A program made the position numbers and the translations under genes. A DNA stretch of 64,000 bases, from positions 6,656,001 through 6,720,000 of the forward strand of contig CP068257.2 in NCBI GenBank assembly GCA_009914755.4, written 5' to 3'. Of the stretch, positions 5,275 to 64,000 are shown one piece after another (the first letter of the stretch is position 1; every line of letters begins with the position of its first letter). The DNA comes from the human T2T-CHM13v2.0 reference genome, Homo sapiens. The notes beneath the pieces are model-generated. The model saw only the letters and a list, made by a program, of their open reading frames with translations, ran no database searches and was not told the DNA's origin.

Positions 5275-5300
5275 TCATCCATCCATCCATCAATCAAATC
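5275..5300. repeat. Short (CATC/ATCC)n microsatellite
   Basis: The sequence reads catccatccatccatcaatcaaatc. Confidence 0.6.
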
Positions 5301-6519: not shown

Positions 6520-6775
6520 CCCAGCTTTAATTCTATTGTAACAAGATTTATTTTTCTAATTCCATTTTTGGATTCTTGATTTATTGGTAAAGAAATACAG
6601 TTATTTTTGTATACCAATCTTACATAGTGTTACATTCTTAAATTTGTTCATGAGTCCTAATACTTTTTAGTAAATTTCTTACGATTTTCTAAATGCAAGA
6701 TCATGTCATCTGTACATAAAGATAACTGTACTTCTTCTTTTCCAATCTAGATGCTGTTTATTTATTTACATTGCC
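6520..6775 (-). mobile_element. L1 (LINE-1) ORF2 fragment, antisense orientation
   Basis: '...attttctaaatgcaagatcatgtcatctgtacataaagataactgtacttcttcttttccaatctagatgc...' matches the well-known antisense strand of L1 ORF2. The reverse complement encodes ~EEVxLSLxxDDMI, the RT/'FADD' region. Upstream there is an AT-rich L1-antisense-like tail. Confidence 0.6.
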
Positions 6776-6903
6776 AAATTGTCCCAGCTACCACTGTTAT
6801 CAAGTAAAAGGGTCTCACTGCCCAAAGCACAAGAAGCCAGTACCATGACACTGAGTTTTCGAGAAAAGAAAATGTTTAAAGTCAAACCAAAACCTAGGGT
6901 AGA

Positions 6904-7267
<364 letters not shown>

Positions 7268-7632
7268 CTACATCAAAAAAAGTAGAAAAGCTTCAAATAA
7301 ACAAACTAATAATGCATCTTAAATAATTAGAAAAGCAAGAACAAACCAAAACCAAAATTAGTAGAAGGAAACATAGCAAAGGTTGGAGCAGAAATAAATG
7401 AAATTGAAATTTAGCAATATAAAATATCAATGAAATGAAAAGTTAATATTTTTAAAAGACCAACAAAATCAACAAACATTTAACCAGACTAAGAAAAAAG
7501 AGAGAAGATTCCAATACATAAAACCAGAGATTGAAAAGGAGACACTATAACTGATACTGTGGAAATTCAAAGAATCATTAGAAACTATTATGACCAACTA
7601 TATTCCAATAAATTGAAAAACCTGGAAGAAAT

Positions 7633-7921
<289 letters not shown>

Positions 7922-37479: not shown

Positions 37480-40400
37480 AATGGAATTGAACGAAATGGA
37501 ATGGAATCAACCTCAGTCAAATAGAATGGAATGGAATGGAATGGAATGGAATGGAATAGAATGCAATGGAAGGGAAAGGAAAGGAATGGAATCAACCCGA
37601 GTGGAATGGAATGGAATGGAATGGAATCCACCCGAGTGGAATGGAATGGAATGGAATGCAATGGAATTGAACGGAATATAATGGAATTAAATGGAATCAT
37701 CCCGTGTGGAACGGAATGGTATCTAATGCAATGGAATGGAATGGAACAGAACGGAATGGAATGGAAGAATAGATTGAATCCAAGTGGAATTGAATGGAAT
37801 GGAATGGATTGGAAAGGAATGGAATGGATTGCAATGGATTGGAATGGAAACGAATGGATTCAACCCGAGTGGAATGCAATGGATTGGAATGGAATGGAAT
37901 GGAATGGAATGGAATGGAATGGAATGGAATGGAATGGAATCAACACGAATGCAATGGAACGGAATGGAATGGAATGGAATGGAATGGTATGGAATGAAAT
38001 AGAAAGGAACGGAACAGAATCAACCCCAGTGGAATTGAATGGAAAGGAATGCAATTGAATGGAATGGAATGGAATGGAATCAACCCGAGTGGAGTAGAAT
38101 GGAATTGAATAGAATGAACCGCAGTGGAATGGAATGGAATGGAATGCAATAGAATGGAAAGGAATGGAATGGAATGGAATGGAATGGAATGGAATTCAAT
38201 GGAATCAACCCAAGTGGAATGGAACGGTATGGAATGCAATGGAATGGAGTGGAACAGAACGGAATGGAATGGAATGGAAATGATTGAATCCGAGTGGAAA
38301 TGAATGGAAGGGAAAGCATTGTAAAGGAATGGAAAGGATTCAACCCGAGTGGAATGTAATGGATTGGAATGGAGTGGAATGTAATGGAATGGATTGGAAT
38401 GGAATGGAATCAACACAAATGGAAAGGAATGGAATGGAATGGAATAGAATGGAAAGGAATGGAATGCAATGGAATGGAATGGAATGGAATGGAATGGAAT
38501 AAACCGGAATGGAATGGAATGGAATGGAATGGAATGGAATGGAATGGAATGGAATGGAATGGAATGGAATGGAATGAATTGGAATAAACCCGAATGGAAT
38601 GGAATGGAATGGAATGGAATGGAGTGGAATGGAATAAACACCAGTGGAATGAAATGGAATGGAATGGAATGGTATGGAATGGAATGGAATGGAAAGGAAT
38701 GAAATCAACCCCAGTAGAATGGAACAGAATGGAATGGAATGCAATGGAATGGAAAGGAATGGAATCAACTGGAATGGAATGAAATGGAATGGAATGGAGT
38801 GGAATGGAATGGAATGCATTGGAATCAACAAGAGTGAAATGCAATGGAATGGAATGGAATGGAATGGAATAGAATGGAATCAACCCGAGTGGAGTGAAAT
38901 CAAATGGAATGGAATGGAATGGAATCAACCTGAGTGGAACGGAATGGAATGGAATGGAATGGAATGGAATGGAATGGAATGGTATCAACCAGAGTGGAAT
39001 TGAATGGAATGGAATGGAATGGAATGCAATGGAATCAACTGGAATGGAATGGAATGGAATGGAATGGAACGGAATGGAATGGAATGGAATGGAACGGAAT
39101 GGAATGGAAACTACTGGAATGGAATGGAAACAACCCGAGTGGAATGGAATGCAATGAATGGAATGGAGTGGAATGAAATGGAATGGAATGGAATCAACAC
39201 GAGTGGACTGCAACGGAATGAAATGGAATGGAATGGAATGGAATGGAATGAAACGGAACGGAACAGAACGGAATTGAATGCAATGGAATCAACCCAAGTG
39301 GAAAGGAACGGAATGGAATGGAATGGAATGGAATGGAATGGAATAGCATGCAATCAACTTTGGTGGAATGGTATGGAATGGTATGGTATGGAATGGAATG
39401 GAATGGAATGGTATGGAATGGAATAGAATAAAAGGGCATGGAATGGAATGGAATCAAGCCAAGAGGAATGGAATGGAATGGAATGGAATGGAATGGAATG
39501 GAATGGAATGGAATGGATTGGAAATGAATCAAACCGAGTGGAATGGAATAGAATGGAATGGAATGGAATGGAAACAATGCAATGCAATTGTATCAACGGG
39601 AATGGAATGCATTGGAATGGAATGGAATGGAATGGAATCACCCTGAGTGGATAGGAATGGAATGGAAGGGAATGGAAAGGAATGGAATGGAATGGAAACT
39701 AATGGAATGGAATGGAAACAACCCGAGTGGAATGGAATGGAATGGAATGGAATGGAATGGAATGGAATACAACAAAATGGAAACAACCCGAGTGGAATGG
39801 CATGGAATGGAAAGGACTTGAATATAATGGAATGGATTGGAATCAACCCGATTAGAAACTAATGGAATTGAATGGAATGGAATGGAATAGAATGGAATGG
39901 AATTTACCCGAGTGGAATGGAATGTAACGAAATTAAATGGAATGGATTGGAATGGAATGGAATGGATTGGAGTGGAATGGAATGGAATCAACACGAATGG
40001 GATGGAACGGAATGGAATGCAATGGAACGGAATGGAATGGAATGGAATGGAATGGAATGGAATGGTATGGAATGAAATGGAAAGGAACGGAATAGAATCA
40101 ACCCAAGTGGAACGGAATGGAATGGAATGGAAGGGAATCAACACGAGTGGAATGGAATGGAAAGGAATGCAATGGAATGGAATGGAATGGAATGGAATGG
40201 AATGGAATCTACCCGAGTGGAGTAGAATGGAATGGCATGGAATCATCTCCAGTGGAATGGAATGGAACGGAATGCAATAGAATGGAATGGAAATGAATGG
40301 AATGGAATTCAATGGAATGAACCCGAGTGGAATGGCATGGTATGGAATGCAATGGAATGGATTGGAACAGAACGGAATGGAATGGAATGGAACTGATTGA

Positions 40401-42010
40401 ATCCGAGTGGAATTGAATGGAAGGGAATGCATTGGAAAGGAATGGAAAGGATTCCACCGAGTGGAATGTAATGGATTTTAATGGAGTGGAATGGAATGGA
40501 ATGGAATGGAATCAAAACAAATGGAAAGGAATGGAATGGAATGGAATAGAATGGAAAGGAATGGAATGTAACGGAATGGAATGGAATGGAATGAAATGGA
40601 ATAAACACGAATGGAATGGAATGGAATGGAATGGAATGGATTGGAATGGAATGGAATGAATTGTAGTAAACCCGAATGGAATGGATTGGAATGGAATGGA
40701 ATGGAATGGAATAGAATGGAGTGGAATGGAATAAACACCAGTGGAATGCAATGGAATCGAATGGAATGGATTGGAATGGAATTGAATGGAATGGAATGGA
40801 ATGGAATTAACCCGAGTGGAGTAGAATGGAATGGAATGGAATCAACCCCAGTGGAATGGAATGGAATGGAATGCAAGAGAATGGAATGGAATGGAATGGA
40901 ATGGAATGGAATGGAATTCAATGGAATCAACCCGAGTGGAATGGAATGGTATGGAATGCAATGGAATGGAGTGGAACAGAACGGAATGGAATGAAATGGA
41001 ATTGATTGAATCCGAGTGGAATTGAATGGAAGGGAATGCATTGCAAAGGAATGGAAAGGATTCAACCCGAGTGGAATGTAATGGATTGGAATGGAGTGGA
41101 ATGGAATGGAATGCAATGGAATGGAATCAACACAAATGGAATGGAATGGAATGGAATGGAATAGAATGGAAAGGAATGGAATGCAATCGAATGGAATGGA
41201 ATGGAATGAAATGGAAAAAACCCGAATGGAAAGGAATGGAATGGAAAGGAATGGAATGCAATGGAATGGAATGGAATGGAATGAAATGGAATAAACCCGA
41301 ATGGAATGGAATGGAATGGAATGGAATGAAATAGAATTTACCCGAGTGGAATGGAATATAATGAAATTAAATGGAATGGAATGGAATGGAATGGAATGGA
41401 ATGGAATGGGATGGAATGGAATCTACACGAGTGGAATGGAATGGAATGGAATTTAATGGAATGGAATGGAAAAGAATGGTATGGAATCAACCCGATAGGA
41501 ATGGGATAGAATGGAACGTAATGGAACGGAATGGAATGGAATAAAATGGAATGGAATGGAATGGAAACAACCCGAGTGGAATGGAATGGAATGAAATGGA
41601 ATGGAATGGAATGGAAAGGAATACAACAAATTGGAAACAACCCGAGTGGAATGGCATGGAATGGAATGGACTTGAATATAATGGAATGGATTGGAATCAA
41701 CCCGATTAGAAACTAATGGAATGGAATGAAATGGAGTGGAATGGAATGGAATGGAATGGAATGGAATGGAATGGAATGGAATGGAATTTACCCGAGTGGA
41801 ATGGAATGTAATGAAATTAAATGGAATGGAATGGAATGGAATGGAATGGAATGGAATGGAATCAACCTGAATGGAACGGAATGGAATGGAATGGAATGGA
41901 ATGGAATGGAATGGAATGGAATGGTACCAACCAGAGTGGAATCGAATGGAATTGAATGGAATGGAACGGAATAGAATGCAATGGAATCAACTGGAATGGA
42001 ATGGAATTGA
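37480..42010 (+). repeat. HSat3 distal HOR 'E', copy 0 (~4.53 kb form)
   Basis: ORFs at 37531, 38284, 38369, 38659, 38894, 39368 and 39647 recur at 42061, 42814, 42899, 43169, 43424, 43883 and 44142. Offsets are ~4530-4495. Confidence 0.8.
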
Positions 42011-45000
42011 ATGAAATGGAATGGAATCAACCTCAGTCAAATAGAATGGAATAGAATGGAATGGAATGGAATGGAATGGAATGGAATGGAATGGAATGGA
42101 AGGGAAAGGAACGGAATGGAATCAACCCGAGTGGAATGGAATGGAATGGAATGGAATCCACCCGAGTGGAATGGAATGGAATGGAATGCAATGGAATTGA
42201 ACGGAATATAATGGAATTAAATGGAATCATCCCGTGTGGAACGCAATGGTATCTAATGCAATGGAATGGAATGGTACAGAACGGAATGGAATGGAAGAAT
42301 AGATTGAATCCAAGTGGAATTGAATGGAATGGAATGGATTGGAAAGGAATGGAATGGATTGCAATGGATTGGAATGGAAAGGAATGGATTCAACCCGAGT
42401 GGAATGTAATGGATTGGAATGGAATGGAATGGAATGGAATGGAATGGAATCAACACGAATGGAATGGAACGGAATGGAATGGAATGGAATGGAATGGTAT
42501 GGTATGGAATGAAATGGAAAGGAACGGAACAGAATCAACCCAAGTGGAATGGAATGGAAAGGAATGCAATTGAATGGAATGGAATGGAATGGAATGGAAT
42601 GGAATGGAATGGAATGGAATCAACCCGAGTGGAGTAGAATGGAATGGAATGGAATGAACCGCAGTGGAATGGATTGGAATGGAATGCAATAGAATGGAAT
42701 GGAATGGAATGGAATGGAATGGAATTCAATGGAATCAACCCGAGTAGAATGGAATGGTATGGAATGCAGTGGAATGGAGTGGAACAGAACGGAATGGAAT
42801 GGAATGGAAATGATTGAATCTGAGTGGAATTGAATGGAAGGGAAAGCATTGGAAAGGAATGGAAAGGATTCAACCCGAGTGGAATGTAATGGATTGGAAT
42901 GGAGTGGAATGTAATGGAATGGATTGGAATGGAATGGAATCAACACAAATGGAAAGGAATGGAATGGAATGGAATAGAATGGAAAGGAATGGAATGCAAT
43001 GGAATGGAATGGAATGGAATGAAATGGAATAAACCCGAATGGAATGGAATGGAATGGAATGGAATGGAATGGAATGGAATGAATTGGAATAAACCCGAAT
43101 GGAATGGAATGTAATGGAATGGAATGGAATGGAGTGGAATGGAATAAACACCAGTGGAATGAAATGGAATGGAATGGAATGGTATGGAATGGAATGGAAT
43201 GGAAAGGAATGAAATCAACCCCAGTATAATGGAACAGAATGGAAATGAATGCAATGGAATGGAAAGGAATGGAATCAACTGGAATGGAATGAAATGGAAT
43301 GGAATGGAGTGGAATGGAATGGAATGCATTGGAATCAACAAGAGTGAAATGCAATGGAATGGAATGGAATGGAATGGAATGGAATGGAATGGAATGGAAT
43401 AGAATGGAATCAACCCGAGTGGAGTGAAATCAAATGGAATGGAATGGAATGGAATCAACCTGAGTGGAACGGAATGGAATGGAATGGAATGGAATGGAAT
43501 GGTATCAACCAGAGTGGAATGGAATGGAATTGAATGGAATGGAATGGAATGGAATGCAATGGAATCAACTGGAATGGAATGGAATGGAATGGAATGGAAC
43601 GGAATGGAATGGAAACTACTGGAATGGAATGGAAGCAACCCGAGTGGAATGGAATGCAATGAATGGAATGGAGTGGAATGGAATGGAATGGAATGGAATC
43701 AACACGAGTGGACTGCAACGGAATGAAATGGAATGGAATGGAATGGAATGGAATGGAACTGAACGGAACAGAACGGAATTGAATGGAATGGAATCAACCC
43801 AAGTGGAAAGGAACGGAATGGAATGGAATGGAATGGAATGGAATGGAATGGAATGGAATAGCATGCAATCAACTTTGGTGGAATGGTATGGAATGGTATG
43901 GTATGGAATAGAATGGAATGGAATGGTATGGAATGGAATGGAATAAAAGGGCATGGAATGGAATGGAATCAACCCGAGAGGAATGGAATGGAATGGAATG
44001 GAATGGAATGGAATGGAATGGAAATGAATCAAACCGAGTGGAATGGAATAGAATGGAATGGAATGGAATGGAAACAATGCAATGCAATTGTATCAACGGG
44101 AATGGAATGCATTGGAATGGAATGGAATGGAATCACCCTGAGTGGATAGGAATGGAATGGAAGGGAAACTAATGGAACGGAATGGAAACAACCTGAGTGG
44201 AATGGAATGGAATGGAATGGAATGGAACACAACAAAATGGAAACAACCCGAGTGGAATGGCATGGAATGGAAAGGACTTGAATATAATGGAATGGATTGG
44301 AATCAACCCGATTACAAACTAATGGAAAGCAATGGAATGGAATGGAATGGAATGGAATGGAATGGAATTTACCCGAGTGGAATGGAATGTAACGAAATTA
44401 AATGGAATGGAATGGAATGGAATGGAATGGAATGGAATGGAATGGAATACTACAAAATGGCAACAATCCGAGTGGAATAAAATGGAATGGAAAGGACCTG
44501 AATATAATGGAATGGATTGGAATCAACACGATTAGAAACTAATGGAATGGAATGGAATGGAATTGAATGGAATGGAATGGAAACTACCCGAGTGGAATGG
44601 AAGGTAATGGAATGGAGTGGAATGGAATGGAATGGAATGGAATGGAATGGAACAGAATCGAATCCAATGGAATCAACTGGAATGGAATGGAATGCAATGG
44701 AATGGAATGGAATGGAATGGGATCAATCCGGGTGGAATGGAATAGAATATAATGGAGTGGAATGGAATGGAAGGGAGTGGAATGGAGTGGAATGGAATGG
44801 AATGGAATGGAATCAACACGAATGGAATGGAAGGGAATGGAATGGAATGGAATGGAATGGAATGGAATGGAATGGAGTCCACCCGAGTTGAATGGAATGG
44901 AATGGAATGGAACGGAATATAATGGAATGGAACGGAATCATCCCGAGTGGAATGGAATGGTATGGAATTCAATAGAATGGAATGGAACAGAACGGAATGA

Positions 45001-48000
45001 AATGGAATGGAATAGATTGAATGCGAGTGGAATTGAATGGAATGGAACGGATTGGAATGGAATGGAATGGATTGGAGTGGAATGGAATGGAATCAACACG
45101 AATGGGATGGAACGGAATGGAATGGAATGGAAAGGAACGGAATGGAATCAACCCGAGTGGAATGGAATGGAATGGAATGGAATCCACCCGAGTGGAATGA
45201 AATCGAATGGAATGCAATGGAATTGAACGGAATATAATGGAATTAAAAGGAATCATCCCGAGTGGAATGGAATGGAATCTAATGCAATGGTATCTAATGC
45301 AATGGAATGGAATGAAACAGAACGGAAAGGAATGGAAAGAATAGATTGAATCCAAGTGGAATTGAATGGAATAGAATGGATTGGAAAGGAATGGAATGGA
45401 TTGGAATGGATTGGAATGGAAAGGAATGTATTCAACCAGAGTGGAATGTAATGGATTGGAATGGAATGGAATGGAATGGAATGGAATGGAATGGAATGGA
45501 ATACAATGGAATCAACACGAATGGAATGGAACGGAATGGAATGGAATGGAATGGAATGGAATGGTATGGAATGAAATGGAAAGGAACGGAATAGAATCAA
45601 CCAAAGTGGAATGGAATGGAATGGAATGGAAGGGAATCAACACGAGTGGAATGGAATGGAAAGGAATGCAATGGAATGGAAAGGAATGGAATGGAATGGA
45701 ATGGAATGGAATGGAATGGAATCAACTCGAGTGGAGTAGAATGGAATGGAATGGAATCAATCCCAGTGGAATGGAATGGAATCGAATGGAATGGAATGGA
45801 ATAAAAGGGCATGGAATAGAACGGAATCAACCTGAATGGAAAGGAACGGAATGGAGTGGAATGGTATGGAATGGAATGGAAACTACTGGAATGGAATGGA
45901 AACAACCCGAGTGGAATGGAATGCAATGGAATGGAATGGAGGGGAATGGATTGGAATGGAATGGAATCAACACGAGTGGACTGCAACGGAATGAAATGGA
46001 ATGGAATGCAATGGAATGGAATGGAACGGAACGGAACGGAACGGAATTGAATGGAATGGAATCAACCCAAGGGGAAAGGAATGGAATGGAATGGAATGGA
46101 ATGGAATGGAATGGAAGAGCATGCAATCAAATATGGTGGAATGGTATGGAATGGTATGGAATGGAATGGAATGGAATGGAATGGTATGGAATGGAATGGA
46201 ATAAAAGGGCATGGAATGGAATGAAATCAACCCGACAGGAATGGAAAGGAATGGAATGGAATGGAATGGAATGGAATGGAATGGAATGGAAATGAATCAA
46301 ACCGAGTGGAATGGAACGGAATGGCATGGAAACAATGCAATGCAATGGTATCAACGGGAATGGAATGCATTGGAATGGAATGGAATGTAATCACCCTCAG
46401 TGGATAGGATTGGAATGGAAGGGAATGGAAAGGAATGGAATGGAATGGAAACTAATGGAATGGAATGGAAACAACCCGAGTGGAATGGAATGGAATGGAA
46501 TGGAATGGAATGGAATGGAATGGAATACAACAAAATGGAAACAACCCGAGTGGAATGGCATGGAATGGAAAGGACTTGAATATAATGGAATGGATTGGAA
46601 TCCACCCGATTAGAAACTAATGGAATTGAATGGAATGGAATGGAATAGAATGGAATGGAATGGAATGGAATGGAATGGAATCTACCCGAGTGGAATGGAA
46701 TTGAATGGAATTCAATGGAATGGAATGGAATAGAATGGTATGGAATCAACCCGTGTGGAATGGTATAGAATGGAACGTAATGGAACGGAATGGAATGGAA
46801 TAAAACAGAATGGAATGGAATGGAAACAACCCGAGTGGGATGGAATGGAATGGAATGGAGTGGAATGGAATGGAATAGAATGGAATGGAATGAAATGGAA
46901 TAGAATGAAATGGAAAGGAATGGAATGGAAATAACCCGAGTGGAATGGAATGGAATGGAATGGAATGGAATGGAATCAACCCGAGTTAAATGGAATGGAA
47001 TGGAATGGAACGGAATATAATGGAATGTAACGGAATCATCCCGACTGGAATGGAATGGTATGGAATGCAATGGAATGGAGTGGAACAGAACGGAATGGAA
47101 TGGAATGGAATTGATTGAAACCGAGTGGAATTGAATGGAAGGGAATGCATTGGAAAGGAATGGAAAGGATTCAACCCGAGTGGAATGTAATGGATTGGAA
47201 TGGAGTGGAATGGAATGGAATGGAATGGAATGGAATGGAATCAACACAAATGGAATGGAATGGAATGGAATGGAATGGAATAGAATGGAAAGGAAAGGAA
47301 TGCAAAGGAATGGAAAGGAATGGAATGAAATGGAATAAACCCGAATGGAATGGAATGGAATGGAATGGAATGGAATGGAATGGAATGAATTGGAATAAAC
47401 CCGAATGGAATGGAATGGAATGGAATGGATTGGAATGGAATGGAATGGAGTGGAATGGAATAAACACCAGTTTAATGAAATGGAATGGAATGGAATGGAA
47501 TGGAATGGAAAGGAATGAAATCAAACCGAGTAGAATGGAACACAATGGAATGGATTGGAATGGAATGGAAAAGAATGGAGTCAACTGGAATGGAATGAAA
47601 TGGAATGGAATGGAGTGCAATGGAATGGAATGCAATGGAATCAACAAGAGTGAAATGCAATGGAATGGAATGGAATGGGATGGAATGGAATGGAATGGAA
47701 ACTACCCGAGTGGAATGGAAGGTAATGGAATGGAGTGGAATGGAATGGAATGGAATGGAATGGAACAGAATCGAATCCAATGGAATCAACTGGAATGGAA
47801 TGGAATGGAATGGAATGGAATGGAATGGAATGGAATGGAATCAATCCGGGTGGAATGGAATGGAATATAATGGAGTGGAATGGAATGGAAGGGAGTGGAA
47901 TGGAGTGGAATGGAATGGAATTGGAATGGAATCAACCCGAATGGAATGGAACGGAATGGAATGGAATGGAATGGAATGGAGTCCACCCGACTTGAATGGA

Positions 48001-49609
48001 ATGGAATGGAATGGAATGGAATATAATGGAATGGAACGGAATCATCCCGAGTGTAATGTAATGGTATGGAATTCAATAGAATGGAATGGAACAGAACGGA
48101 ATGAAATGGAATGGAATAGATTGAATGCGAGTGGAATTGAATGGAATGGAACGGATTGGAATGGAATGGAATGGATTGGAGTGGAATGGAATGGAATCAA
48201 GACCAATGGGATGGAACGGAATGGAATGGAATGGAAAGGAACGGAATGGAATCAACCCGAGTGGAATGGAATGGAATGGAATAGAATCCACCCGAGTGGA
48301 ATGGAATCGAATGGAATGCAATGGAATTGAACGGAATATAATGGAATTAAAAGGAATCATCCCGAGTGGAATGGAATGGAATCTAATGCAATGGTATCTA
48401 ATGCAATGGAATGGAATGAAACAGAACGGAAAGGAATGGAAAGAATAGATTGAATCTAAGTGGAATTGAATGGAATGGAATGGATTGGAAAGGAATGGAA
48501 TGGATTGGAATGGATTGGAATGGAAAGGAATGTATTCAACCAGAGTGGAATGTAATGGATTGGAATGGAATGGAATGGAATGGAATGAAATGGAATGGAA
48601 TGGAATGGAATGGAATGGAATGGAATCAACACGCATGGAATGGAACAGAATGGAATGGAATGGAATGGTATGGAATGAAATGGAAAGGAACGGAATAGAA
48701 TCAACCAAAGTGGAATGGAATGGAATGGAATGGAAGGGAATCAACACGAGTGGAATGGAATGGAAAGGAATGGAAAGGAATGCAATGGAATGGAATGGAA
48801 TGGAACGGAATGGAATGGAATGGAATGGAATGGAATGGAATGGAATGGAATGGAATCAACTCGAGTGGAGTAGAATGGAATGGAATGGAATCAACCCCAG
48901 TGGAATGGAATGGAATCGAATGGAAAGGAATGGAATAAACGGGCATGGAATAGAACCGAATCATCCTGAATGGAAAGGAACGGAATGGAGTGGAATGGTA
49001 TGGAATGGAATGGAATGGAAGGGAATCAACCCGAAGGGAATGGAATGAAATGGAATGGAATGGAATGGAATCGAATGGAATCAACCCGAGTGTACTGCAA
49101 CGAAATGAAATGGAATGGAATGGAATGGAAAGGAACAGAACGGAACGGAACGGAATTGAATGGAATGGAATCAACCCAAGTGGAAAGGAATGGAATGGAA
49201 TATAATGGAATGGAATGGAATAGCATGCAATCAAATTTGGTGGAATGGTATGGAATGGTATGGAATGGAATGGAATGGAATGGAATGGAATGGAATGGAA
49301 ACAACTGGAATCGAATGAAATGGAATGGAATGGAGTGGAATGGAATGGAATGCAATGGAATCAACAAGAGTGAAATGCAATGGAATGGAATGGAATGGGA
49401 TGGAATGGAATGGAATCAACCTGAGTGGAGTAGAATGGAATGGAATGGAATGGAATGGAATGGAATGGAATGGAATCAACCTGAGTTGAACGGAATGGAA
49501 TGGAATGGAATGGAATGGAATGGTATCAACCAGAGTGGAATGGAATGGAATTGAATGGAATGGAACGGAATGGAATGCAATGGAATCAACTGGAATGGAA
49601 TGGAATTGA
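42011..49609 (+). repeat. HSat3 distal HOR 'E', copy 1 (~7.60 kb). Contains an internal duplicated block X (44517-46310) and X' (~47605-49400).
   Basis: The block order (starts 42011, 42814, 43169, 43424, 44142, 44517, 46311, 46740, 47115) recurs at 49610 onward. X and X' share near-identical ORFs, e.g. 44762 with 47605-48330 and 45346 with 48450. Confidence 0.8.
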
Positions 49610-52600: not shown

Positions 52601-55600
52601 TGGAATGGAATGGAAAGGAATGGAATGGAATCAACCCGAGTGGAATGGAATGGAATGGAATGGAATCCACCCGAGTGGAATGGAATCGAATGGAATGCAA
52701 TGGAATTGAACGGAATATAATGGAATTAAAAGGAATCATCCCGAGTGGAATGGAATGGAATCTAATGCAATGGTATCTAATGCAATGGAATGGAATGAAA
52801 CAGAACGGAAAGGAATGGAAAGAATAGATTGAATCCAAGTGGAATTGAATGGAATGGAATGGATTGGAAAGGAATGGAATGGATTGGAATGGATTGGAAT
52901 GGAAAGGAATGTATTCAACCAGAGTGGAATGTAATGGATTGGAATGGAATGGAATGGAATGGAATGGAATGGAATGGAATGGAATGCAATGGAATCAACA
53001 CGAATGGAATGGAATGGAATGGAATGGAATGGAATGGAATGGAATGGAATGGAATGAAATGGAAAGGAACGGAATAGAATCAACCAAAGTGGAATGGAAT
53101 GGAATGGAATGGAAGGGAATCAACACGAGTGGAATGGAATGGAAAGGAATGCAATGGAATGGAAAGGAATGGAATGGAATGGAAAGGAATGGAATGGAAT
53201 GGAATGGAATCAACTCGAGTGGAGTAGAATGGAATGGAATGGAATCAACCCCAGTGGAATGGAATGGAATCGAATGGAATGGAATGGAATAAAAGGGCAT
53301 GGAATAGAACGGAATCAACCTGAATGGAAAGGAACGGAATGGAGTGGAATGGTATGGAATGGAATGGAAACTACTGGAATGGAATGGAAACAACCCGAGT
53401 GGAATGGAATGCAATGGAATGGAATGGAGGGGAATGGATTGGAATGGAATGGAATCAACACGAGTGGACTGCAACGGAATGAAATGGAATGGAATGGAAT
53501 GGAATGGAATGGAACGGAACGGAACGGAACGGAATTGAATGGAATGGAATCAACCCAAGGGGAAAGGAATGGAATGGAATGGAATGGAATGGAATGGAAT
53601 GGAAGAGCATGCAATCAAATTTGGTGGAATGGTATGGAATGGTATGGAATGGAATGGAATGGAATGGAATGGAATGGTATGGAATGGAATGGAATAAAAG
53701 GGCATGGAATGGAATGAAATCAACCCGACAGGAATGGAAAGGAATGGAATGGAATGGAATGGAATGGAATGGAATGGAATGGAATGGAAATGAATCAAAC
53801 CGAGTGGAATGGAACGGAATGGCATGGAAACAATGCAATGCAATGGTATCAACGGGAATGGAATGCATTGGAATGGAATGGAATGGAATCACCCTGAGTG
53901 GATAGGATAGGAATGGAAGGGAATGGAAAGGAATGGAATGGAATGGAAACTAATGGAATGGAATGGAAACAACCCAAGTGGAATGGAATGGAATGGAATG
54001 GAATGGAATGGAATGGAATGGAATGGAATGGAATACAACAAAATGGAAACAACCCGAGTGGAATGGCATGGAATGGAAAGGACTTGAATATAATGGAATG
54101 GATTGGAATCCACCCGATTAGAAACTAATGGAATTGAATGGAATGGAATGGAATAGAATGGAATGGAATGGAATGGAATGGAATGGAATGGAATCTACCC
54201 GAGTGGAATGGAATTGAATGGAATTTAATGTAATGGAATAGAATAGAATGGTATCGAATCAACCCGAGTGGAATGGTATAGAATGGAACGTAATGGAACG
54301 GAATGGAATGGAATAAAACAGAATGGAATGGAATGGAAACAACTCGAGTGGGATGGAATGGAATGGAATGGAGTGGAATGGAATGGAACAGAATGGAATG
54401 GAATGAAATGGAATAGAATGAAATGGAAATGAATGGAATGGAAATAACCCGAGTGGAATGGAATGGAATGGAATGGAATGGAATGGAAAGGAATCAACCC
54501 GAGTTAAATGGAATGGAATGGAATGGAACGGAATATAATGGAATGGAACGGAATCATCCCGACTGGAATGGAATGGTATGGAATGCAATGGAATGGAGTG
54601 GAACAGAACGGAATGGAATGGAATGGAATTGATTGAATCCGAGTGGAATTGAATGGAAGGGAATGCATTGGAAAGGAATGGAAAGGATACAACCCGAGTG
54701 GAATGTAATGGATTGGAATGGAGTGGAATGGAATGGAATGGAATGGAATGGAATGAAATCAACAGAAATGGAATGGAATGGAATGGAATGGAATAGAATG
54801 GAAAGGAATGGAATGCAAAGGAATGGAATGGAATGGAATGAAATGGAATAAACCCGAATGGAATGGAATGGAATGGAATGGAATGGAATGGAATGGAATG
54901 GAATGAATTGGAATAAACCCGAATGGAATGGAATGGAATGGAATGGAATGGAATGGAATGGAATGGAGTGGAATGGAATAAACACCAGTTTAATGAAATG
55001 GAATGGAATGGAATGGAATGGAATGGAATGGAAAGGAATGAAATCAAACCGAGTAGAATGGAACACAATGGAATGGATTGGAATGGAATGGAAAAGAATG
55101 GAATCAACTGGAATGGAATGAAATGGAATGGAATGGAGTGCAATGGAATGGAATGCAATGGAATCAACAAGAGTGAAATGCAATGGAATGGAATGGAATG
55201 GAATGGAATGGAATGGAATGGAATGGAATAGAATGGAATCAACACGAGTGGAGTGAAATAAAATGGAATGGAATGGAATAGAATCAACCTGAGTGGAACG
55301 GAATGGAATGGAATGGAATGGTATCAACCAGAGTGGAATGGAATGGAATTGAATGGAATGGAACGGAATGGAATGCAATGGAATGAACTGGAATGGAATG
55401 GAATGGAATGGAATGGAACGGAATCAACCTGAGTCAAATAGAATGGAATGGAATGGAATGGAAAGGAATGGAATGGATTTGAATGGAATGGAATGAATTG
55501 TAATAAACCCGAATGGAATGGAATGGAATGGAATGGAATAGAATGGAGTGGAATGGAATAAACACCAGTGGAATGCAATGGAATCGAATGGAATGGATTG

Positions 55601-56749
55601 GAATGGAATTGAATGGAATGGAATGGAATGGAATTAACCCGAGTGGAGTAGAATGGATTGGAATGGAATCAACCCCAGTGGAATGGAATGGAATGGAATG
55701 CAAGAGAATGGAATGGAATGGAATGGAATGGAATTGACTGAATCCGAGTGGAATTGAATGGAAGGGAATGCATTGCAAAGGAATGGAAAGGATTCAACCC
55801 GAGTGGAATGTAATGGATTGGAATGGAGTGGAATGGAATGGAATGCAATGGAATGGAATGGAATGGAATGGAATAGAATGGAAAGGAATGGAATGCAATC
55901 GAATGGAATGGAATGGAATGAAATGGAATAAACCCGAATGGAAAGGAATGTAATGGAAAGGAATGGAATGCAATGGAATGGAATGGAATGGAATGAAATG
56001 AAATGGAATAAACCCGAATGGAATGGAATGGAATGGAATGGAATGGAATGGAATGGAATGGAATGGAATTTACCCGAGTGGAATGGAATATAATGAAATT
56101 AAATTGAATGGAATGGAATGGAATGGAATGGAATGGAATGGAATGGAATGGAATCTACCCGAGTGGAATGGAATGGAATGGAATTTAACGGAATGGAATG
56201 GAAAAGAATGGTATGGAATCAACCCAAGAGGAATGGGATAGAATGGAATGTAATGGAACGGAATGGAATGGAATAAAATGGAATGGAATGGAATGGAAAC
56301 AACCCGAGTGGAATGGAATGGAATGAAATGGAATGGAATGGAATGGAAAGGAATACAACAAAATGGAAACAACCCGAGTGGAATGGCATGGAATGGAAAG
56401 GACTTGAATATAAAGGAATGGATTGGAATCAACCCGATTAGAAACTAATGGAATGGAATGAAATGGAGTGGAATGGAATGGAATGGAATGGAATGGAATG
56501 GAATGGAATGGAATTTACCCGAGTGGAATGGAATGTAATGAAATTAAATGCAATGGAATGGAATTGAATGGAATGGAATGGAATGGAATCAACCTGAGTG
56601 GAACGGAATGGAATGGAATGGAATGGAATGGAATGGAATGGAATGGAATGGAATGGAATGGTATCAACCAGAGTGGAATGGAATGGAATTGAATGGAATG
56701 GAACGGAATAGAATGCAATGGAATCAACTGCAATGGAATGGAATTGAAT
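49610..56749 (+). repeat. HSat3 distal HOR 'E', copy 2 (~7.14 kb). Its tail 55400-56749 matches 40400-42010 of copy 0, not the X' tail of copy 1.
   Basis: ORFs at 49610, 50408, 50713, 50843, 51421, 52000, 52829, 53898, 54633 are colinear with copy 1. ORFs 55513, 55768, 56023, 56263 and 56468 match 40611, 41026, ~41340, 41531 and 41726. Confidence 0.8.
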
Positions 56750-59700
56750 GAAATGGAATGGAATCAACCTCAGTCAAATAGAATGGAATGGAATGGAATG
56801 GAATGGAATGGAATGGAAGGGAAAGGAACGGTTTGGAATCAACCCGAGTGGAATGGAATGGAATGGAATGGAATCCACCCGAGTGGAATGGAATGGAATG
56901 GATTGCAATGGAATTGAACGGAATATAATGGAATTAAATGGAATCATCCCGTGTGGAACGGAATGGTATCTAATGCAATGGAATGGAATGGAACAGAACG
57001 GAATGGAATGGAAGAATAGATTGAATCCAAGTGGAATTGAATGGAATGGAATGGATTGGAAAGGAATGGAATGGATTGCAATGGATTGGAATGGAATGGA
57101 ATGGATTCAACCCGAGTGGAATGTAATGGATTGGAATGGAATGGAATGGAATGGAATGGAATGGAATGGAATGGAATCAACACGAATGGAATGGAACGGA
57201 ATGGAATGGAATGGAATGGAATGGTATGGAATGAAATGGAAAGGAACGGAACAGAATCAACCCAAGTGGAATGGAATGGAAAGGAATGCAATTGAATGGA
57301 ATGGAATGGAATGGAATGGAATGGAATGCAATGGAATGGAATCAACCCGAGTGGAGTAGAATGGAATGGAATGGAATCAACCGCAGTGGAATGGAATGGA
57401 ATGGAATGCAATAGAATGGAATGGAATGGAATGGAATGGAATTCAATGGAATCAACCCGAGTGGAATGGAATGGTATGGAATGCAGTGGAATGGAGTGGA
57501 ACAGAACGGAATGGAATGGAATGGAAATGATTGAATCTGAGTGGAATTGAATGGAAGAGAAAGCATTGGAAAGGAATGGAAAGGATTCAACCCGAGTGGA
57601 ATGTAATGGATTGGAATGGAGTGGAATGTAATGGAATGGATTGGAATGGAATGGAATCAACACAAATGGAAAGGAATGGAATGGAATGGAATAGAATGGA
57701 AAGGAATGGAATGCAATGGAATGGAATGGAATGGAATGAAATGGAATAAACCTGAATGGAATGGAATGGAATGAATTGGAATAAACCCGAATGGAATGGA
57801 ATGGAATGGAATGGAATGGAATGGAATGGAGTGGAATGGAATAAACACCAGTGGAATGAAATGAAATGGAATGGAATGGTATGGAATGGAATGGAATGGA
57901 AAGGAATGAAATCAACCCCAGTATAATGGAACAGAATGGAAATGAATGCAATGGAATGGAAAGGAATGGAATCAACTGGAATGGAATTAAATGGAATGGA
58001 ATGGAGTGGAATGGAATGGAATGCATTGGAATCAACAAGAGTGAAATGCAATGGAATGGAATGGAATGGAATGGAATGGAATGGAATGGAATGGAATAGA
58101 ATGGAATCAACCCGAGTGGAGTGAAATCAAATGGAATGGAATGGAATGGAATCAACCTGAGTGGAACGGAATGGAATGGAATGGAATGGAATGGAATGGT
58201 ATCAACCAGAGTGGAATGGAATGGAATTGAATGGAATGGAATGGAATGGAATGCAATGGAATCAACTGGAATGGAATGGAATGGAATGGAATGGAACGGA
58301 ATGGAATGGAAACTACTGGAATGGAATGGAAACAACCCGAGTGGAATGGAATGCAATGAATGGAATGGAGTGGAATGGAATGGAATGGAATGGAATCAAC
58401 ACGAGTGTACTGCAACGGAATGAAATGGAATGGAATGGAATGGAATGGAATGGAATGGAATGGAACGGAATGGAACAGAACGGAATTGAATGGAATGGAA
58501 TCAACCCAAGTGGAAAGGAATGGAATGGAATGGAATGGAAGGAATGGAATGGAATGGAATGGAATAGCATGCAATCAACTTTGGTGGAATGGTATGGAAT
58601 GGTATGGTATGGAGTGGAATGGAATGGAATGGTATGGAATGGAATGGAATAAAAGGGCATGGAATGGAATGGAATTAACCCGAGAGGAATGGAATGGAAT
58701 GGAATGGAATGGAATGGAATGGAAGGAATGGAAATGAATCAAACCGAGTGGAATGGAATAGAATGGAATGGAATGGAATGGAAACAATGCAATGCAATTG
58801 TATCAACGGGAATGGAATGCATTGGAATGGAATGGAATGGAATCACCCTGAGTGGATAGGAATGGAATGGAAGGGAATGGAAAGGAATGGAATGGAATGG
58901 AAACTAATGGAATGGAATGGAAACAACCCGAGTGGAATGGAATGGAATGGAATGGAATGGAATGGAATGGAATGGAATGGAATACAACAAAATGGAAACA
59001 ACCCGAGTGGAATGGCATGGAATGGAAAGGACTTGAATATAATGGAATGGATTGGAATCAACCCGATTACAAACTAATGGAAAGCAATGGAATGGAATGG
59101 AATGGAATGGAATGGAATTTACCCGAGTGGAATGGAATGTAACGAAATTAAATGGAATGGAATGGAATGGAATGGAATGGAATACTACAAAATGGCAACA
59201 ATCCGAGTGGAATGGCATGGAATGGAAACGACCTGAATATAATGGAATGGATTGGAATCAACCCGATTAGAAACTAATGGAATGGAATGGAATGGAATGG
59301 AAACTACCCGAGTGGAATGGAATGTAATGGAATGGAGTGGAATGGAATGGAATGGAATGGAATGGAATGGAATGGAATGGAACAGAATCGAATCCAATGG
59401 AATCAACTGGAATGGAATGGAATGCAATGGAATGGAATGGAATGGAATGGAATGGGATCAATCCGGGTGGAATGGAATAGAATATAATGATGTGGAATGG
59501 AATGGAAGGGAGTGGAATGGAGTTGAATGGAATGGAATGGAATGGAATCAACCCGAATGGAATGGAACGGAATGGAATGGAATGGAATGGAATGGAATGG
59601 AATGGAATGGAATGGAATGGAGTCCACCCGAGGTGAATGGAATGGAATGGAATGGAACGGAATATAATGGAATGGAACGGAATCATCCCGAGTGGAATGG

Positions 59701-62700
59701 AATGGTATGGAATTCAATAGAATGGAATGGAACAGAACGGAATGAAATGGAATGGAATAGATTGAATGCGAGTGGAATTGAATGGAATGGAACGGATTGG
59801 AATGGAATGGAATGGACTGGAGTGGAATGGAATGGAATCAACACGAATGGGATGGAACGGAATGGAATGGAATGGAAAGGAACGGAATGGAATCAACCCG
59901 AGTGGAATGGAATGGAATGGAATGGAATCCACCCGAGTGGAATGGAATCGAATGGAATGCAATGGAATTGAACGGAATATAATGGAATTAAAAGGAATCA
60001 TCCCGAGTGGAATGGAATGGAATCTAATGCAATGGTATCTAATGCAATGGAATGGAATGAAACAGAACGGAAAGGAATGGAAAGAATAGATTGAATCCAA
60101 GTGGAATTGAATGGAATGGAATGGATTGGAAAGGAATGGAATGGATTGGAATGGATTGGAATGGAAAGGAATGTATTCAACCATTGTGGAATGTAATGGA
60201 TTGGAATGGAATGGAATGGAATGGAATGGAATGGAATGGAATGCAATGGAATCAACACGAATGGAATGGAACGGAATGGAATGGAATGGAATGGTATGGA
60301 ATGAAATGGAAAGGAACGGAATAGAATCAACCAAAGTGGAATGGAATGGAATGGAATGGAAGGGAATCAACACGAGTGGAATGGAGTGGAAAGGAATGCA
60401 ATGGAATGGAAAGGAATGGAATGGAATGGAAAGGAATGGAATGGAATGGAATGGAATGGAATGGAATGGAATCAACTCGAGTGGAGTAGAATGGAATGGA
60501 ATGGAATCAACCCCAGTGGAATGGAATGGAATCGAATGGAATGGAATGGAATAAAAGGGCATGGAATAGAACGGAATCAACCTGAATGGAAAGGAACGGA
60601 ATGGAGTGGAATGGTATGGAATGGAATGGAAACTACTGGAATGGAATGGAAACAACCCGAGTGGAATGGAATGCAATGGAATGGAATGGAGGGGAATGGA
60701 TTGGAATGGAATGGAATCAGCACGAGTGGACTGCAACGGAATGAAATGGAATGGAATGGAATGGAATGGAATGGAACGGAACGGAACGGAACGGAATTGA
60801 ATGGAATGGAATCAACCCAAGGGGAAAGGAATGGAATGGAATGGAATGGAATGGAATGGAATGGAATGGAATGGAAGAGTATGCAATCAAATTTGGTGGA
60901 ATGGTATGGAATGGTATGGAATGGAATGGAATGGAATGGTATGGAATGGAATGGAATAAAAGGGCATGGAATGGAATGAAATCAACCCGACAGGAATGGA
61001 AAGGAATGGAATGGAATGGAATGGAATGGAATGGAATGGAATGGAATGGAAATGAATCAAACCGAGTGGAATGGAACGGAATGGCATGGAAACAATGCAA
61101 TGCAATGGTATCAACGGGAATGGAATGCATTGGAATGGAATGGAATGGAATCATCCTGAGTGGATAGGATTGGAATGAAAGGGAATGGAAAGGAATGGAA
61201 TGGAATGGAAACTAATGGAATGGAATGGAAACAACCCGAGTGGAATGGAATGGAATGGAATGGAATGGAATGGAATGGAATACAACAAAATGGAAACAAC
61301 CCGAGTGGAATGGCATGGAATGGAAAGGACTTGAATATAATGGAATGGATTGGAATCAACCCGATTAGAAACTAATGGAATTGAATGGAATGGAATGGAA
61401 TAGAATGGAATGGAATGGAATGGCATGGAATCTACCCGAGTGGAATGGAATTGAATGGAATTTAATGGAATGGAATGGAATAGAATGGTATGGAATCAAC
61501 CCGAGTGGAATGGTATAGAATGGAACGTAATGGAACGGAATGGAATGGAATAAAACAGAATGGAATGGAATGGAAACAACCCGAGTGGAATGGAATGGAA
61601 TGGAATGGAGTGGAATGGAATGGAATGGAATGGAGTGGAATGGAATGGAATAGAATGGAATGGAATAGAATGGAATGGAATGAAATGGAATAGAATGAAA
61701 TGGAAAGGAATGGAATGGAAATAACCCGAGTGGAATGGAATGGAATGGAATGGAATGGAATGGAATGGAATGGAATGGAATCAACCCGAGTTAAATGGAA
61801 TGGAATGGAATGGAACGGAATATAATGGAATGGAACGGAATCATCCCTACTGGAATGGAATGGTATGGAATGCAATGGAATGGAGTGGAACAGAACGGAA
61901 TGGAATGGAATGGAATTGATTGAAACCGAGTGGAATTGAATGGAAGGGAATGCATTGGAAAGGAATGGAAAGGATTCAACCCGAGTGGAATGTAATGGAT
62001 TGGAATGGAGTGGAATGGAATGGAATGGAATAGAATGGAATGGAATCAACACAAATGGAATGGAATGGAATGGAATGGAATGGAATAGAATGGAAAGGAA
62101 TGGAATGCAAAGGAATGGAATGGAATGGAATGAAATGGAATAAACCCGAATGGAATGGAATGGAATGGAATGGAATGGAATGGAATGGAATGGAATGGAA
62201 TGGAATGGAGTGGAATGGAATAAACACCAGTTTAATGAAATGGAATGGAATGGAATGGAATGGAATACAACAAAATGGAAACAACCCGAGTGGAATGGCA
62301 TGGAATGAAAAGGATTGAATATAATGGAATGGATTGGAATCAACCCGATTAGAAACTAATGGAATGGAATGGAATGGAATGGAATGGAATGGAATGGAAT
62401 GGAATGGAATGGAATCTAACCTAGTGGAATGGAAAGGAATGGAATTTAAAGAAATGAAATGGAATGGAATGGAACAGAATTGAATGGAATGGAATGGAAT
62501 GGAATCTACCCGAGTGAAATGGAATGGAATGGAATTTAATGGAATGGAATGGTATAGAATGTAATGGAATCAACCCCAGTGGAATGGTATAGAATGTAAT
62601 GTAATGGAATGGAATGGAATAAAATGGAATGGAATGGAAACAACCCGAGTGGAATGGAATGGAATAACCGGAGAGGAATGGAATGGAATGGAGTGGAATG

Positions 62701-63900
62701 GAATGGAATAGAATGGAATAGAAAGGAATGGAATAGAATGAAATTGAAAGGAATGGAATGGAAACCACCCGAGTGGAATGGAATGGAATGGAATGGAATG
62801 CAATGGAATCAACCCGAGTGGAATGGAAAGGAATGGAATGGAACGGAATATAATGGAATGGAATGGAAACATCCCGAGTGGAATGGAATGGTATGGAATG
62901 CAATTGAATGGTATGGAACAGAACGGAATGAAATGGAATGCAATAGATTGATTGCGAGTGGAATTGAATGGAATGGAATGGATTGGAATGGAATGGAAAG
63001 GATTGGAGTGGAATGGAATGGAATCAACAAGAATGGAATGGAAAGGAATGGAATGGAATGGAATGGAATGGAATGGAATGGTAAGGAACAGAATGGAAAC
63101 AACCCGAGTGGAATGGAATGGAATGGACTGTAATCCACCCGAGTGGAATGGAATGTAATGGAATTGAACGGAATATAATGGAATTGAATGGAATCATCCC
63201 GAGTCGAATGGAATGGTATCTAATGCAATGGAATGGAATGGAACAGAACGGAATGGAATGGAAAGAATAGATTGAATCCAAGTGGAATTGAATGGAATGA
63301 AATGGATTGGAAAGGAATGGAATGGATTGGAATGGAAAGGAATGGATTCAACACGAGTGGAATGTAATGGATTGGAATGGAGTGGAATGGAATAGAATGG
63401 AATCAACACGAATGGAATGGAACGGAATGGAATGGAATGGAATGGAATGCTATGGAATGAAATGGAAAGGAACGGAATAGAATCAACCCAAGTGTAATGG
63501 AATGGAAGGGAATTGAAGGGAATCAACACGAGTGGAACGGAATGGAAAGGAATGCAATGGAATGGAATGGAATGGAATGGAATGGAATGGAATGGAAGGG
63601 AATGGAATGGAACGGAAAGGAATCAACCCAAGAGGAGTGGAATGGAATAGAATGGAACCAACCCGAGTGGAATGGAATGCTATGGAATTCAATGGAATGG
63701 AGTGGAACAGAACTGAATGATATGAAATGGAATTGATTGAATCCGAGTGGAATTGAACGGAAGGGAACGGATTGGAATGGAATGGAAAGGATTCAACACG
63801 AGTGGAATGTAATGGAATGGAGTGGAGTGGAATGGAATGGTATGGAATGTAATGGAATGGAATGGAATGGAATGAAATGGAATAAACCCGAATGCAATGG
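56750..63900 (+). repeat. HSat3 distal HOR 'E', copy 3 (~7.1-7.2 kb, reaching the window end)
   Basis: ORFs at 56748, 57531, 57866, 58121, 58852, 59252, 60091, 61160, 61490 and 61940 are colinear with 49610, 50408, 50713, 50843, (51421), 52000, 52829, 53898, ~54250 and 54633. Confidence 0.8.
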
Positions 63901-64000
63901 AATGGATTGGAATGGAATGGAATGGAATGCAATGGAATGGAATGGAATGAAATGGAAAGGAGTGCAATGGAATAAACACCAGTGGAACGAAATGGAATGG

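What the first reader, a model, noticed from the sequence alone, without database searches (positions are those of the whole stretch)
37480..64000. Distal domain with a variable-length HOR (4.5, 7.6, 7.1, ~7.2 kb) whose copies exchange internal blocks
The landmark block 'MKWNGINLSQIEW...' and the blocks that follow it start at ~37.48, 42.01, 49.61 and 56.75 kb. Copy 1 carries an internal duplication (X at 44517-46310, X' at ~47605-49400). Copy 2 lacks X'. It ends with the same tail as copy 0 (40.4-42.0 kb matches 55.4-56.75 kb, a 14.73 kb offset). Copy 3 follows copy 2's order. This alternating structural variation between neighbouring HOR copies is a direct footprint of unequal crossing-over. 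It also gives haplotype-informative markers in a region usually treated as featureless.
Basis: seen in the sequence. Interest (0 to 1): 0.5.

Follow-up and report, generated by a model that had tools for sequence, protein, structure and literature searches.

The report
Variable multi-kb repeat units in HSat3
This is an ordinary stretch of primate (almost certainly human) satellite III DNA. Its simple GGAAT repeat is organised into 4.5-7.6 kb units that differ by whole blocks, the known footprint of out-of-register recombination in such arrays, so it is real but not new.

Summary
A 29-base landmark recurs at 37501, 42021, 49620 and 56758, giving unit lengths of 4520, 7599 and 7138 bp. The fourth unit is cut off by the window end. 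On-diagonal identity is 96-99%, against about 82% background. Chains share 430-1860 rare 20-mers, against at most 140 in controls. The X/X' duplication, the absence of X' from copy 2 and the shared tail of copies 0 and 2 are confirmed with refined edges. One claim fails: copy 3 follows copy 2 only to about 62.27 kb. It then switches to an X-type tail, like copy 1 and like the sequence before copy 0.

The sequence is HSat3: 53% exact GGAAT, CAACCCGAGT spacers, one strand, next to a truncated L1 and Alus. The published name for such units is nested tandem repeats (NTRs), not HORs.

Unequal homologous exchange is supported. Two resolved junctions lie inside (GGAAT)n tracts. 45 of 49 indels are multiples of 5. 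A 238-bp exact patch sits at a paralogous position, which suggests gene conversion.

Multi-kb HSat3 units, hybrid units and unequal exchange are already published, so novelty and interest are low. Chromosome and subfamily could not be determined.

The parts
9009..64000 (+). HSat3-type satellite array, G-rich (GGAAT)n strand on +. It extends beyond the window end.
   Evidence: TRF finds period 5 from 9009. Lag-5 self-identity is 0.73, against 0.29 in the flank. There are no non-satellite inserts: the lowest 300-bp window scores 0.61. 53% of bases are exact GGAAT and only one ATTCC occurs. CAACCCGAGT occurs 128 times, and none of 20 HSat2A1 marker 24-mers is present. GC skew is +0.65 throughout.
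35600..37500 (+). Tail of the unit before copy 0: an X-like block (~35.6-37.15 kb) followed by block t (~37146-37500).
   Evidence: 37146-37500 matches 49250-49619 at 94-100% per 50 bp. t(-1) versus t1 is 98.3%. 35.3-37.3 kb is collinear with copy 3's tail at 90.5%.
37501..42020 (+). Copy 0 (4520 bp): head H 37501-~39944, a middle part 39945-~40700 with only paralogous matches, and tail T ~40700-42020.
   Evidence: H0 versus H1-3 is 95.9-96.3%. T0 versus T2 is 97.8%. Tiles in the middle part match many paralogues at 87-93%.
39666..39903 (+). 238-bp stretch identical to 61179-61416, which is the Y block of copy 3 and a non-orthologous position.
   Evidence: Exact match. Diagnostic sites on both sides (up to 39657 and from 39904) are H-type, while 39855-39889 are Y-type.
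42021..49619 (+). Copy 1 (7599 bp): H 42021-44581, X 44582-46240, Y 46241-47699, X' 47700-~49300, t ~49250-49619.
47661..47699 (+). Y|X' junction of copy 1, inside a ~40-bp (GGAAT)n tract common to the end of Y and the sequence preceding X.
   Evidence: Per-50-bp identity to copy 2 is 49-50/50 up to 47699 and 28/50 after it. Identity to X1 is 50/50 from 47700. Sequences are shown.
49620..56757 (+). Copy 2 (7138 bp): H 49620-52064, X 52065-53733, Y 53734-55222, link 55223-55527 (holds a landmark-like motif at 55418), T 55528-56757.
   Evidence: C1 versus C2 is 98.84% over 5509 aligned bases. Coordinates were mapped. The tail comparison is and the motif.
56758..64000 (+). Copy 3 (at least 7243 bp, cut by the window end): H 56758-59316, X 59317-60995, Y 60996-~62266, an H-end-like piece 62267-~62385, and an X-like tail ~62385-64000.
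   Evidence: C1 versus C3 is 97.73% and C2 versus C3 is 97.79%.
62242..62266 (+). Junction where copy 3 leaves collinearity with copies 1 and 2. It lies inside a pure (GGAAT)5 tract and continues as H-end-like sequence (matching 59183 onward).
   Evidence: Alignments. The tract (62242, 25 bp) is listed.

Best explanation
The region is the inner part of a primate, almost certainly human, satellite III (HSat3) array that begins at 9009 next to a truncated LINE-1. The ancestral (GGAAT)n repeat, interrupted about every 85 bp by CAACCCGAGT-like spacers, is organised here into multi-kb nested tandem repeat units. Each unit starts with a 2.4-2.6 kb head H. Units differ in which blocks follow:
- copy 0: H, a short middle part, tail T (4.5 kb)
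- copy 1: H, X, Y, X', t (7.6 kb)
- copy 2: H, X, Y, link, T (7.1 kb)
- copy 3: H, X, Y, then an X-like tail (at least 7.2 kb)

The length variants arise from homologous exchange out of register. This means unequal sister-chromatid or interhomologue crossing-over, plus gene conversion and pentamer slippage. The substrates are plain (GGAAT)n tracts and sub-blocks that recur many times within and between units.

Recent homogenisation keeps H-X-Y of copies 1-3 at 98-99% identity. The tails, and copy 0 nearer the array edge, retain older differences.

Shown: the block map, the identities, the junction positions, the pentamer-phased indels and the identical patch. Inferred: the recombination mechanism, and the order and age of events. 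No sequence-specific function of the block pattern is implied. The ORF-like 'peptides' are translation artefacts of a repeat that lacks stop codons in several frames.
For: Identity as HSat3 in a primate:
- establish the pentamer content, the spacer motif, the single strand and the absence of HSat2A1 markers.
- Alu-type 7SL hits and an L1 ORF2 fragment (E 1e-34) lie in the flank.

Unit structure: landmark, chains, alignments, dot-plot.

Significance against Markov and block-shuffle controls.

Homology-mediated exchange:
- The Y|X' junction lies in a ~40-bp (GGAAT)n tract.
- Copy 3's junction lies in a (GGAAT)5 tract. Such tracts cover only 19.5% of the region.
- 45 of 49 internal indels are multiples of 5.
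- A 238-bp exact paralogous patch is flanked by sites of the other type.
- Sub-blocks recur up to 16-17 times across 9-64 kb, which supplies substrates for misaligned pairing.

Independent sample: metagenome contig L002 carries a T-type tail joined to H at 95-96%.

Literature: multi-kb HSat2,3 units are called NTRs. [quoted passage not shown] Hybrid 2.7 kb units built from DYZ18 and DYZ1 parts are described.
Against: - Only two junctions could be resolved to the base. Other transitions (copy 0's middle part, X' to t, link to T) fall in sequence with many paralogues and are ambiguous.
- One haplotype cannot separate crossing-over from gene conversion or replication template switching.
- X' is older than the split of copies 1-3 (96% versus 99%), so the event history is not a simple series of recent crossovers.
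- The alternation of tail types hints at a larger regular unit (see the rival explanation).
- Species, chromosome and HSat3 subfamily were not determined.
Confidence: 0.8

Rival explanations
1. The alternation is not a series of separate unequal exchanges. It is a regular two-unit super-repeat of about 12-15 kb: an A-type unit ending in X-like+t followed by a B-type unit ending in T. This super-repeat was amplified as a whole and later modified by indels.
For: - Tail types alternate without exception over five units.
- A continuous diagonal at 14.7 kb crosses the unit boundary for 6.2 kb: 41025-44167 plus 44229-47265 versus 55757-62070.
- A diagonal at 12.1 kb crosses the t|H boundary: 37239-38436 versus 49348-50560.
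- 14700 is among the strongest k-mer offsets.
Against: - The shared 5.4 kb does not group by type. C1(A)-C2(B) is 98.84%, higher than C1(A)-C3(A) at 97.73%. Informative sites: 84 group C1 with C2, 29 group C1 with C3, 27 group C2 with C3.
- H0(B) is equidistant, at about 96%, from H1, H2 and H3.
- The two A-type junctions sit at different positions: Y-equivalent 55222 in copy 1 and 55024 in copy 3.
- The A-type tails are only 86-89% alike.
- The super-period is not constant (12.1 versus 14.7 kb).
Confidence: 0.15
2. The block differences are assembly artefacts: mis-joins or collapses of a uniform satellite repeat.
For: Satellite arrays are error-prone to assemble. No reads are available to check. 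Junctions in low-complexity (GGAAT)n tracts are also where an assembler could mis-join.
Against: - Copies differ by 1-4% in scattered private substitutions and phased indels, rather than being identical collapsed copies.
- Tail types are each seen twice or more, at 97.8-98.3% identity and not 100%.
- An independent metagenome contig carries the T|H junction.
Confidence: 0.04

Closest known systems
Human satellite III (HSat3) nested tandem repeats, e.g. DYZ1 / HSat3A6 (3.6 kb unit) and the NTRs found by NTRprism in T2T-CHM13 HSat2,3 arrays
   Same: - Built from (GGAAT)n with CAACCCGAGT-type spacers.
- Multi-kb units nested on the pentamer.
- Units 96-99% alike.
- A single strand orientation.
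- Evolution by unequal exchange.
   Different: - Unit length here is 4.5-7.6 kb and varies from unit to unit, rather than a dominant 3.6 kb.
- The subfamily and chromosome are unknown.
- The stretch lies 28-55 kb from an array edge, where units are less homogenised.
Hybrid / variant HSat3-derived units on Yq (3.1 kb and 2.7 kb repeats made of DYZ18 and DYZ1 parts; Hallast et al. preprint)
   Same: New unit types are created by joining parts of related units. Arrays of different unit length lie next to one another.
   Different: The Y variants form their own homogeneous arrays. Here the variants alternate one by one within a single short stretch.
Alpha-satellite HOR structural variants (e.g. 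variant HORs on chr7 and chr10 in T2T-CHM13)
   Same: Neighbouring repeat units differ by the gain or loss of internal blocks through unequal exchange. Such variants serve as haplotype markers.
   Different: Alpha HORs consist of a whole number of ~171-bp monomers and exchanges are in monomer register. Here there is no fixed monomer: spacer intervals have a median of 85 bp and an interquartile range of 65-135 bp. Exchanges use pentamer tracts and irregular sub-blocks.

Membership tests
HSat3 (human satellite III) | Derived from a (CATTC)n/(GGAAT)n pentamer repeat | tested here: met
   53% of bases are exact GGAAT. Lag-5 identity is 0.73 and lag-10 is 0.70. TRF finds period 5.
HSat3 (human satellite III) | Interspersed CAACCCGA(G/A)T-type 10-mer rather than the HSat2 23/26-bp CATTCGATTCC...ATGAT structure | tested here: met
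   CAACCCGAGT occurs 128 times (2.3 per kb). ATCATCGAATGGAA occurs 0 times. None of 20 HSat2A1-specific 24-mers is present. That the 10-mer is diagnostic rests on my own knowledge of the classical satellite III literature.
HSat3 (human satellite III) | Primate pericentromeric or acrocentric/Yq location, and assignment to one of the A1-A6 / B1-B5 subfamilies | not testable with these tools
   Alus and an L1 in the flank show a primate genome. No human reference is available among the tools, and the held copy of the subfamily 24-mer list covers only 2A1.
Nested tandem repeat (NTR) sensu Altemose et al. | Multi-kb tandem units built on a short ancestral repeat, without discrete equal-sized monomers | tested here: met
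   Units of 4520, 7599 and 7138 bp are 96-99% identical. Spacer intervals are irregular. The definition is quoted.
Higher-order repeat (HOR) in the alpha-satellite sense | Unit made of a whole number of monomers of similar length, with monomers 20-40% diverged from each other and HOR copies nearly identical | tested here: not met
   There is no constant monomer length. Sub-blocks are irregular and appear in different orders in H and in X-Y: F2-F1-P versus F2-P-F1. Only the 'copies nearly identical' part holds.
Products of unequal homologous exchange | Junctions of variant units lie in sequence shared by both parental contexts, and indels keep the repeat phase | tested here: met
   Two of two resolved junctions lie in (GGAAT)n tracts. 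45 of 49 indels are multiples of 5. The sample of junctions is small.

The most novel reading that the evidence does not exclude
The strict alternation of two tail types over five consecutive units might reflect a stable dimeric super-unit of about 12-15 kb specific to this HSat3 array. In this reading the head-X-Y parts are homogenised across unit types while the tails are kept apart. That would be a case of block-selective concerted evolution inside one satellite unit, with short conversion tracts such as the 238-bp identical patch as the vehicle.
Probability: 0.12. Interest if true: 0.35.

Novelty: already known. Interest (0 to 1): 0.15.

Why it matters
It matters little beyond bookkeeping. 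The stretch is a clean small-scale illustration of how HSat3 units gain and lose blocks. Junctions sit in pentamer tracts, indels are phased by five, and there is one probable conversion patch. The corrected block map could serve as a structural marker set if this array is compared across haplotypes. It does not open a new question, because multi-kb HSat3 units, hybrid units and unequal exchange are already documented in the T2T and pangenome literature.

Tried and rejected
- BLASTN self-alignment of the window, and of 37-64 kb alone, timed out twice on the satellite. I replaced it with rare-k-mer chaining, fitting alignments of tiles and MAFFT.
- Chain length alone is a poor statistic. Markov and shuffled controls give sparse chains up to 1.4 kb. 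I switched to the number of shared rare 20-mers per chain.
- Subfamily typing with the Altemose 2014 24-mer list failed. The held file is cut and holds only HSat2A1.
- Two scans of genome contigs, for the landmark and for the X-start marker, found nothing.
- The metagenome scan gave two short contigs. L002 is informative. L001 (coverage 0.8) is a mosaic and was not used.
- An exact-product look-up of an ORF across the Y|X' junction found nothing.
- Pfam found nothing in two flank ORFs. The PDB sequence search then identified the L1 ORF2 fragment.
- Rejected idea: copy 0 as a clean deletion derivative of a copy-2-like unit, made by crossover between the paralogous P blocks (H-end and X-end/Y-start). 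Diagnostic sites show copy 0 stays H-type on both sides of a short Y-type patch.
- Rejected idea: X' as a recent duplicate of copy 1's own X. It is equidistant from X1, X2 and X3.
Full report
**What the sequence is**

From 9009 to the window end the + strand is a (GGAAT)n-based satellite.
- TRF reports period 5 from 9009.
- Lag-5 self-identity is 0.73, against 0.29 in the flank.
- 53% of bases are exact GGAAT, and ATTCC occurs once. The array therefore has a single orientation.
- No 300-bp window drops below 0.61, so there are no foreign inserts.
- CAACCCGAGT occurs 128 times. Spacer-like motifs come at a median of 85 bp (interquartile range 65-135 bp).
- An HSat2-type motif and 20 HSat2A1-specific 24-mers are absent.

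This is HSat3-type satellite.

The flank (1-9008) carries three Alu-like 7SL matches. It also carries a LINE-1 ORF2 fragment (8136-8504, E 1e-34 to human ORF2p structures). The L1 runs up to the exact start of the satellite. The genome is therefore primate. Two metagenome contigs holding the landmark fit human DNA. Chromosome and subfamily could not be determined with the tools at hand.

**Checking the observation**

As DNA, ATGGAATCAACCTCAGTCAAATAGAATGG occurs at 37501, 42021, 49620 (1 mismatch) and 56758. This gives unit lengths of 4520, 7599 and 7138 bp. The fourth unit runs into the window end, so it is at least 7243 bp.

Rare-20-mer chaining, global alignments, tile painting and an identity dot-plot all show diagonals at 4.5, 7.1-7.6, 3.1 and 14.7 kb.

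Background similarity between unrelated HSat3 tiles is about 82% (median fitting score 129 of 200). The diagonals run at 96-99% substitution identity. The top chains share 430-1860 rare 20-mers. Markov simulations give at most 56 and 100-bp block shuffles at most 140. The repeat is real and far beyond chance.

**Corrected block map**

| Unit | Coordinates | Blocks |
|---|---|---|
| Before copy 0 | ~35.6-37.5 kb | X-like block ~35.6-37.15 kb; t ~37146-37500 |
| Copy 0 | 37501-42020 | H 37501-~39944; middle part with only paralogous matches, to ~40700; T to 42020 |
| Copy 1 | 42021-49619 | H 42021-44581; X 44582-46240; Y 46241-47699; X' 47700-~49300; t ~49250-49619 |
| Copy 2 | 49620-56757 | H 49620-52064; X 52065-53733; Y 53734-55222; link 55223-55527; T 55528-56757 |
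| Copy 3 | 56758-64000+ | H 56758-59316; X 59317-60995; Y 60996-~62266; H-end-like piece to ~62385; X-like block to the window end |

Substitution identities:

| Comparison | Identity |
|---|---|
| C1-C2 over about 5.4 kb | 98.84% |
| C1-C3 | 97.73% |
| C2-C3 | 97.79% |
| H0 versus H1-3 | 95.9-96.3% |
| X' versus X1-3 | 96.1-96.3% |
| X1-3 among themselves | 98.6-99.2% |
| T0-T2 | 97.8% |
| t(-1)-t1 | 98.3% |
| X-like tail of copy 3 versus X1-3 | 86-87% |
| X-like tail of copy 3 versus the block before copy 0 | 88.7% in the multiple alignment; ~90.5% pairwise |

Right, with edges shifted by 50-300 bp:
- the four starts;
- the X/X' duplication;
- the absence of X' from copy 2;
- the shared tail of copies 0 and 2.

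Wrong: copy 3 shares copy 2's order only up to about 62266. Its last 1.7 kb is an X-type block. Architecturally copy 3 therefore resembles copy 1 and the unit before copy 0, not copy 2.

The tails run X-like+t, T, X'+t, T, X-like.

**Mechanism**

Two junctions could be resolved to the base.
- In copy 1, identity to copy 2 is 49-50 of 50 up to 47699 and collapses after it. Identity to X1 is 50 of 50 from 47700. The switch lies in a ~40-bp (GGAAT)n tract present both at the end of Y and in front of X.
- In copy 3, the switch from Y to H-end-like sequence lies in a pure (GGAAT)5 tract at 62242-62266.

Such tracts cover 19.5% of the region. The two A-type junctions sit at different Y positions (equivalents of 55222 and 55024), so they are separate events.

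Among copies 1-3, 45 of 49 internal indels are multiples of five.

A 238-bp exact match joins 39666-39903 (H-end of copy 0) to 61179-61416 (Y block of copy 3). This is a paralogous position, 21.5 kb away. In copy 0 the patch is flanked on both sides by H-type diagnostic sites. At the surrounding 4-7% divergence, zero differences in 238 bp is not expected. A recent conversion-like transfer is the simplest reading.

Sub-blocks recur up to 16-17 times across 9-64 kb at 88-95%, which gives ample substrate for misaligned pairing.

All this fits unequal homologous exchange plus conversion and slippage. The data do not separate crossing-over from other homology-driven routes.

**The rival super-repeat**

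The alternation and the long 14.7 kb and 12.1 kb diagonals that cross unit boundaries suggest an A+B dimer. Against this:
- The shared H-X-Y parts do not group by type. C1-C2 are the closest pair. Informative sites are 84, 29 and 27.
- H0 is equidistant from H1-3.
- The A-type junctions and tails differ from one another.

An old dimer overprinted by later homogenisation of H-X-Y cannot be excluded with five units. I give this rival about 0.15.

**Comparison with what is known**

Altemose et al. describe multi-kb units in HSat2,3 and propose calling them nested tandem repeats. They distinguish these from HORs, which are made of discrete, similar-sized monomers. The T2T-Y paper describes DYZ1 as a ~3.6 kb HSat3 NTR, with rearrangements consistent with unequal exchange and higher divergence at peripheral blocks. 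Hallast et al. describe hybrid 2.7 kb and 3.1 kb units built from parts of DYZ18 and DYZ1.

The present stretch is a member of this known kind. The HOR definition is not met, and the NTR definition is met.

**Verdict**

This is a real, well-structured but ordinary HSat3 NTR segment near an array edge. The finding's description needs one substantive correction (copy 3's tail) and a change of term (NTR rather than HOR). Novelty: already known. Interest: about 0.15.

Noticed in passing
window 8136-9008: A LINE-1 ORF2 fragment on the + strand. 8136-8504 matches human ORF2p residues ~564-682 (E 1e-34). The element is cut off exactly at the first base of the satellite (9009), so the array edge abuts a 3'-truncated L1.
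   Followed up: partly
window 4696-4983 (-), 6905-7192 (+), 7634-7912 (+): Three Alu-like elements, seen as paired Metazoa_SRP / mir-1268 Rfam hits below gathering score. They mark the flank as primate DNA. The 4-6 kb stretch is GC-rich (0.51).
   Followed up: no
window 13398-18690 vs 18699-23900; also 26034-27829: The proximal part of the same array has a different unit of 5.2-5.3 kb. Two adjacent copies are 99.69% identical over 5.18 kb, with exact matches up to 519 bp. This is more recent than anything in the distal domain. A third partial copy is 97.7-98.4% identical.
   Followed up: partly
window 39666-39903 and 61179-61416: A 238-bp exact match between non-orthologous blocks (H-end of copy 0 and Y of copy 3). 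In copy 0 it is flanked by sites of the other paralogue type. This is a probable gene-conversion tract.
   Followed up: yes
window 55223-55527 (motif at 55418): The link between Y and T in copy 2 contains a vestigial unit boundary. A landmark-like ACGGAATCAACCTGAGTCAAATAGAATGG is preceded by sequence ~93% like the last 150 bp before true landmarks. The same module recurs in the proximal domain near 18.4, 23.6, 28.7, 30.6 and 33.7 kb.
   Followed up: partly
window 27512-28045 vs 28702-29240: A local direct duplication 1.19 kb apart, with a 200-bp exact core (27871/29066).
   Followed up: no
L002 (OOQC01009649.1, 1570 bp) and L001 (ERZ1699227 contig, 1414 bp): Two metagenome contigs carry the landmark. 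L002 has a T-type tail joined to H, at 96% to copy 2's tail and 95-96% to the heads. It is therefore a related but non-identical unit from another sample. L001 (coverage 0.8) is a mosaic of sub-blocks, including ones that match 34.9, 17.4/22.3 and 54.5 kb at 96-98%.
   Followed up: partly
window 1613-1692: A 42-bp unit repeated 1.9 times (94% match) in the non-satellite flank.
   Followed up: no
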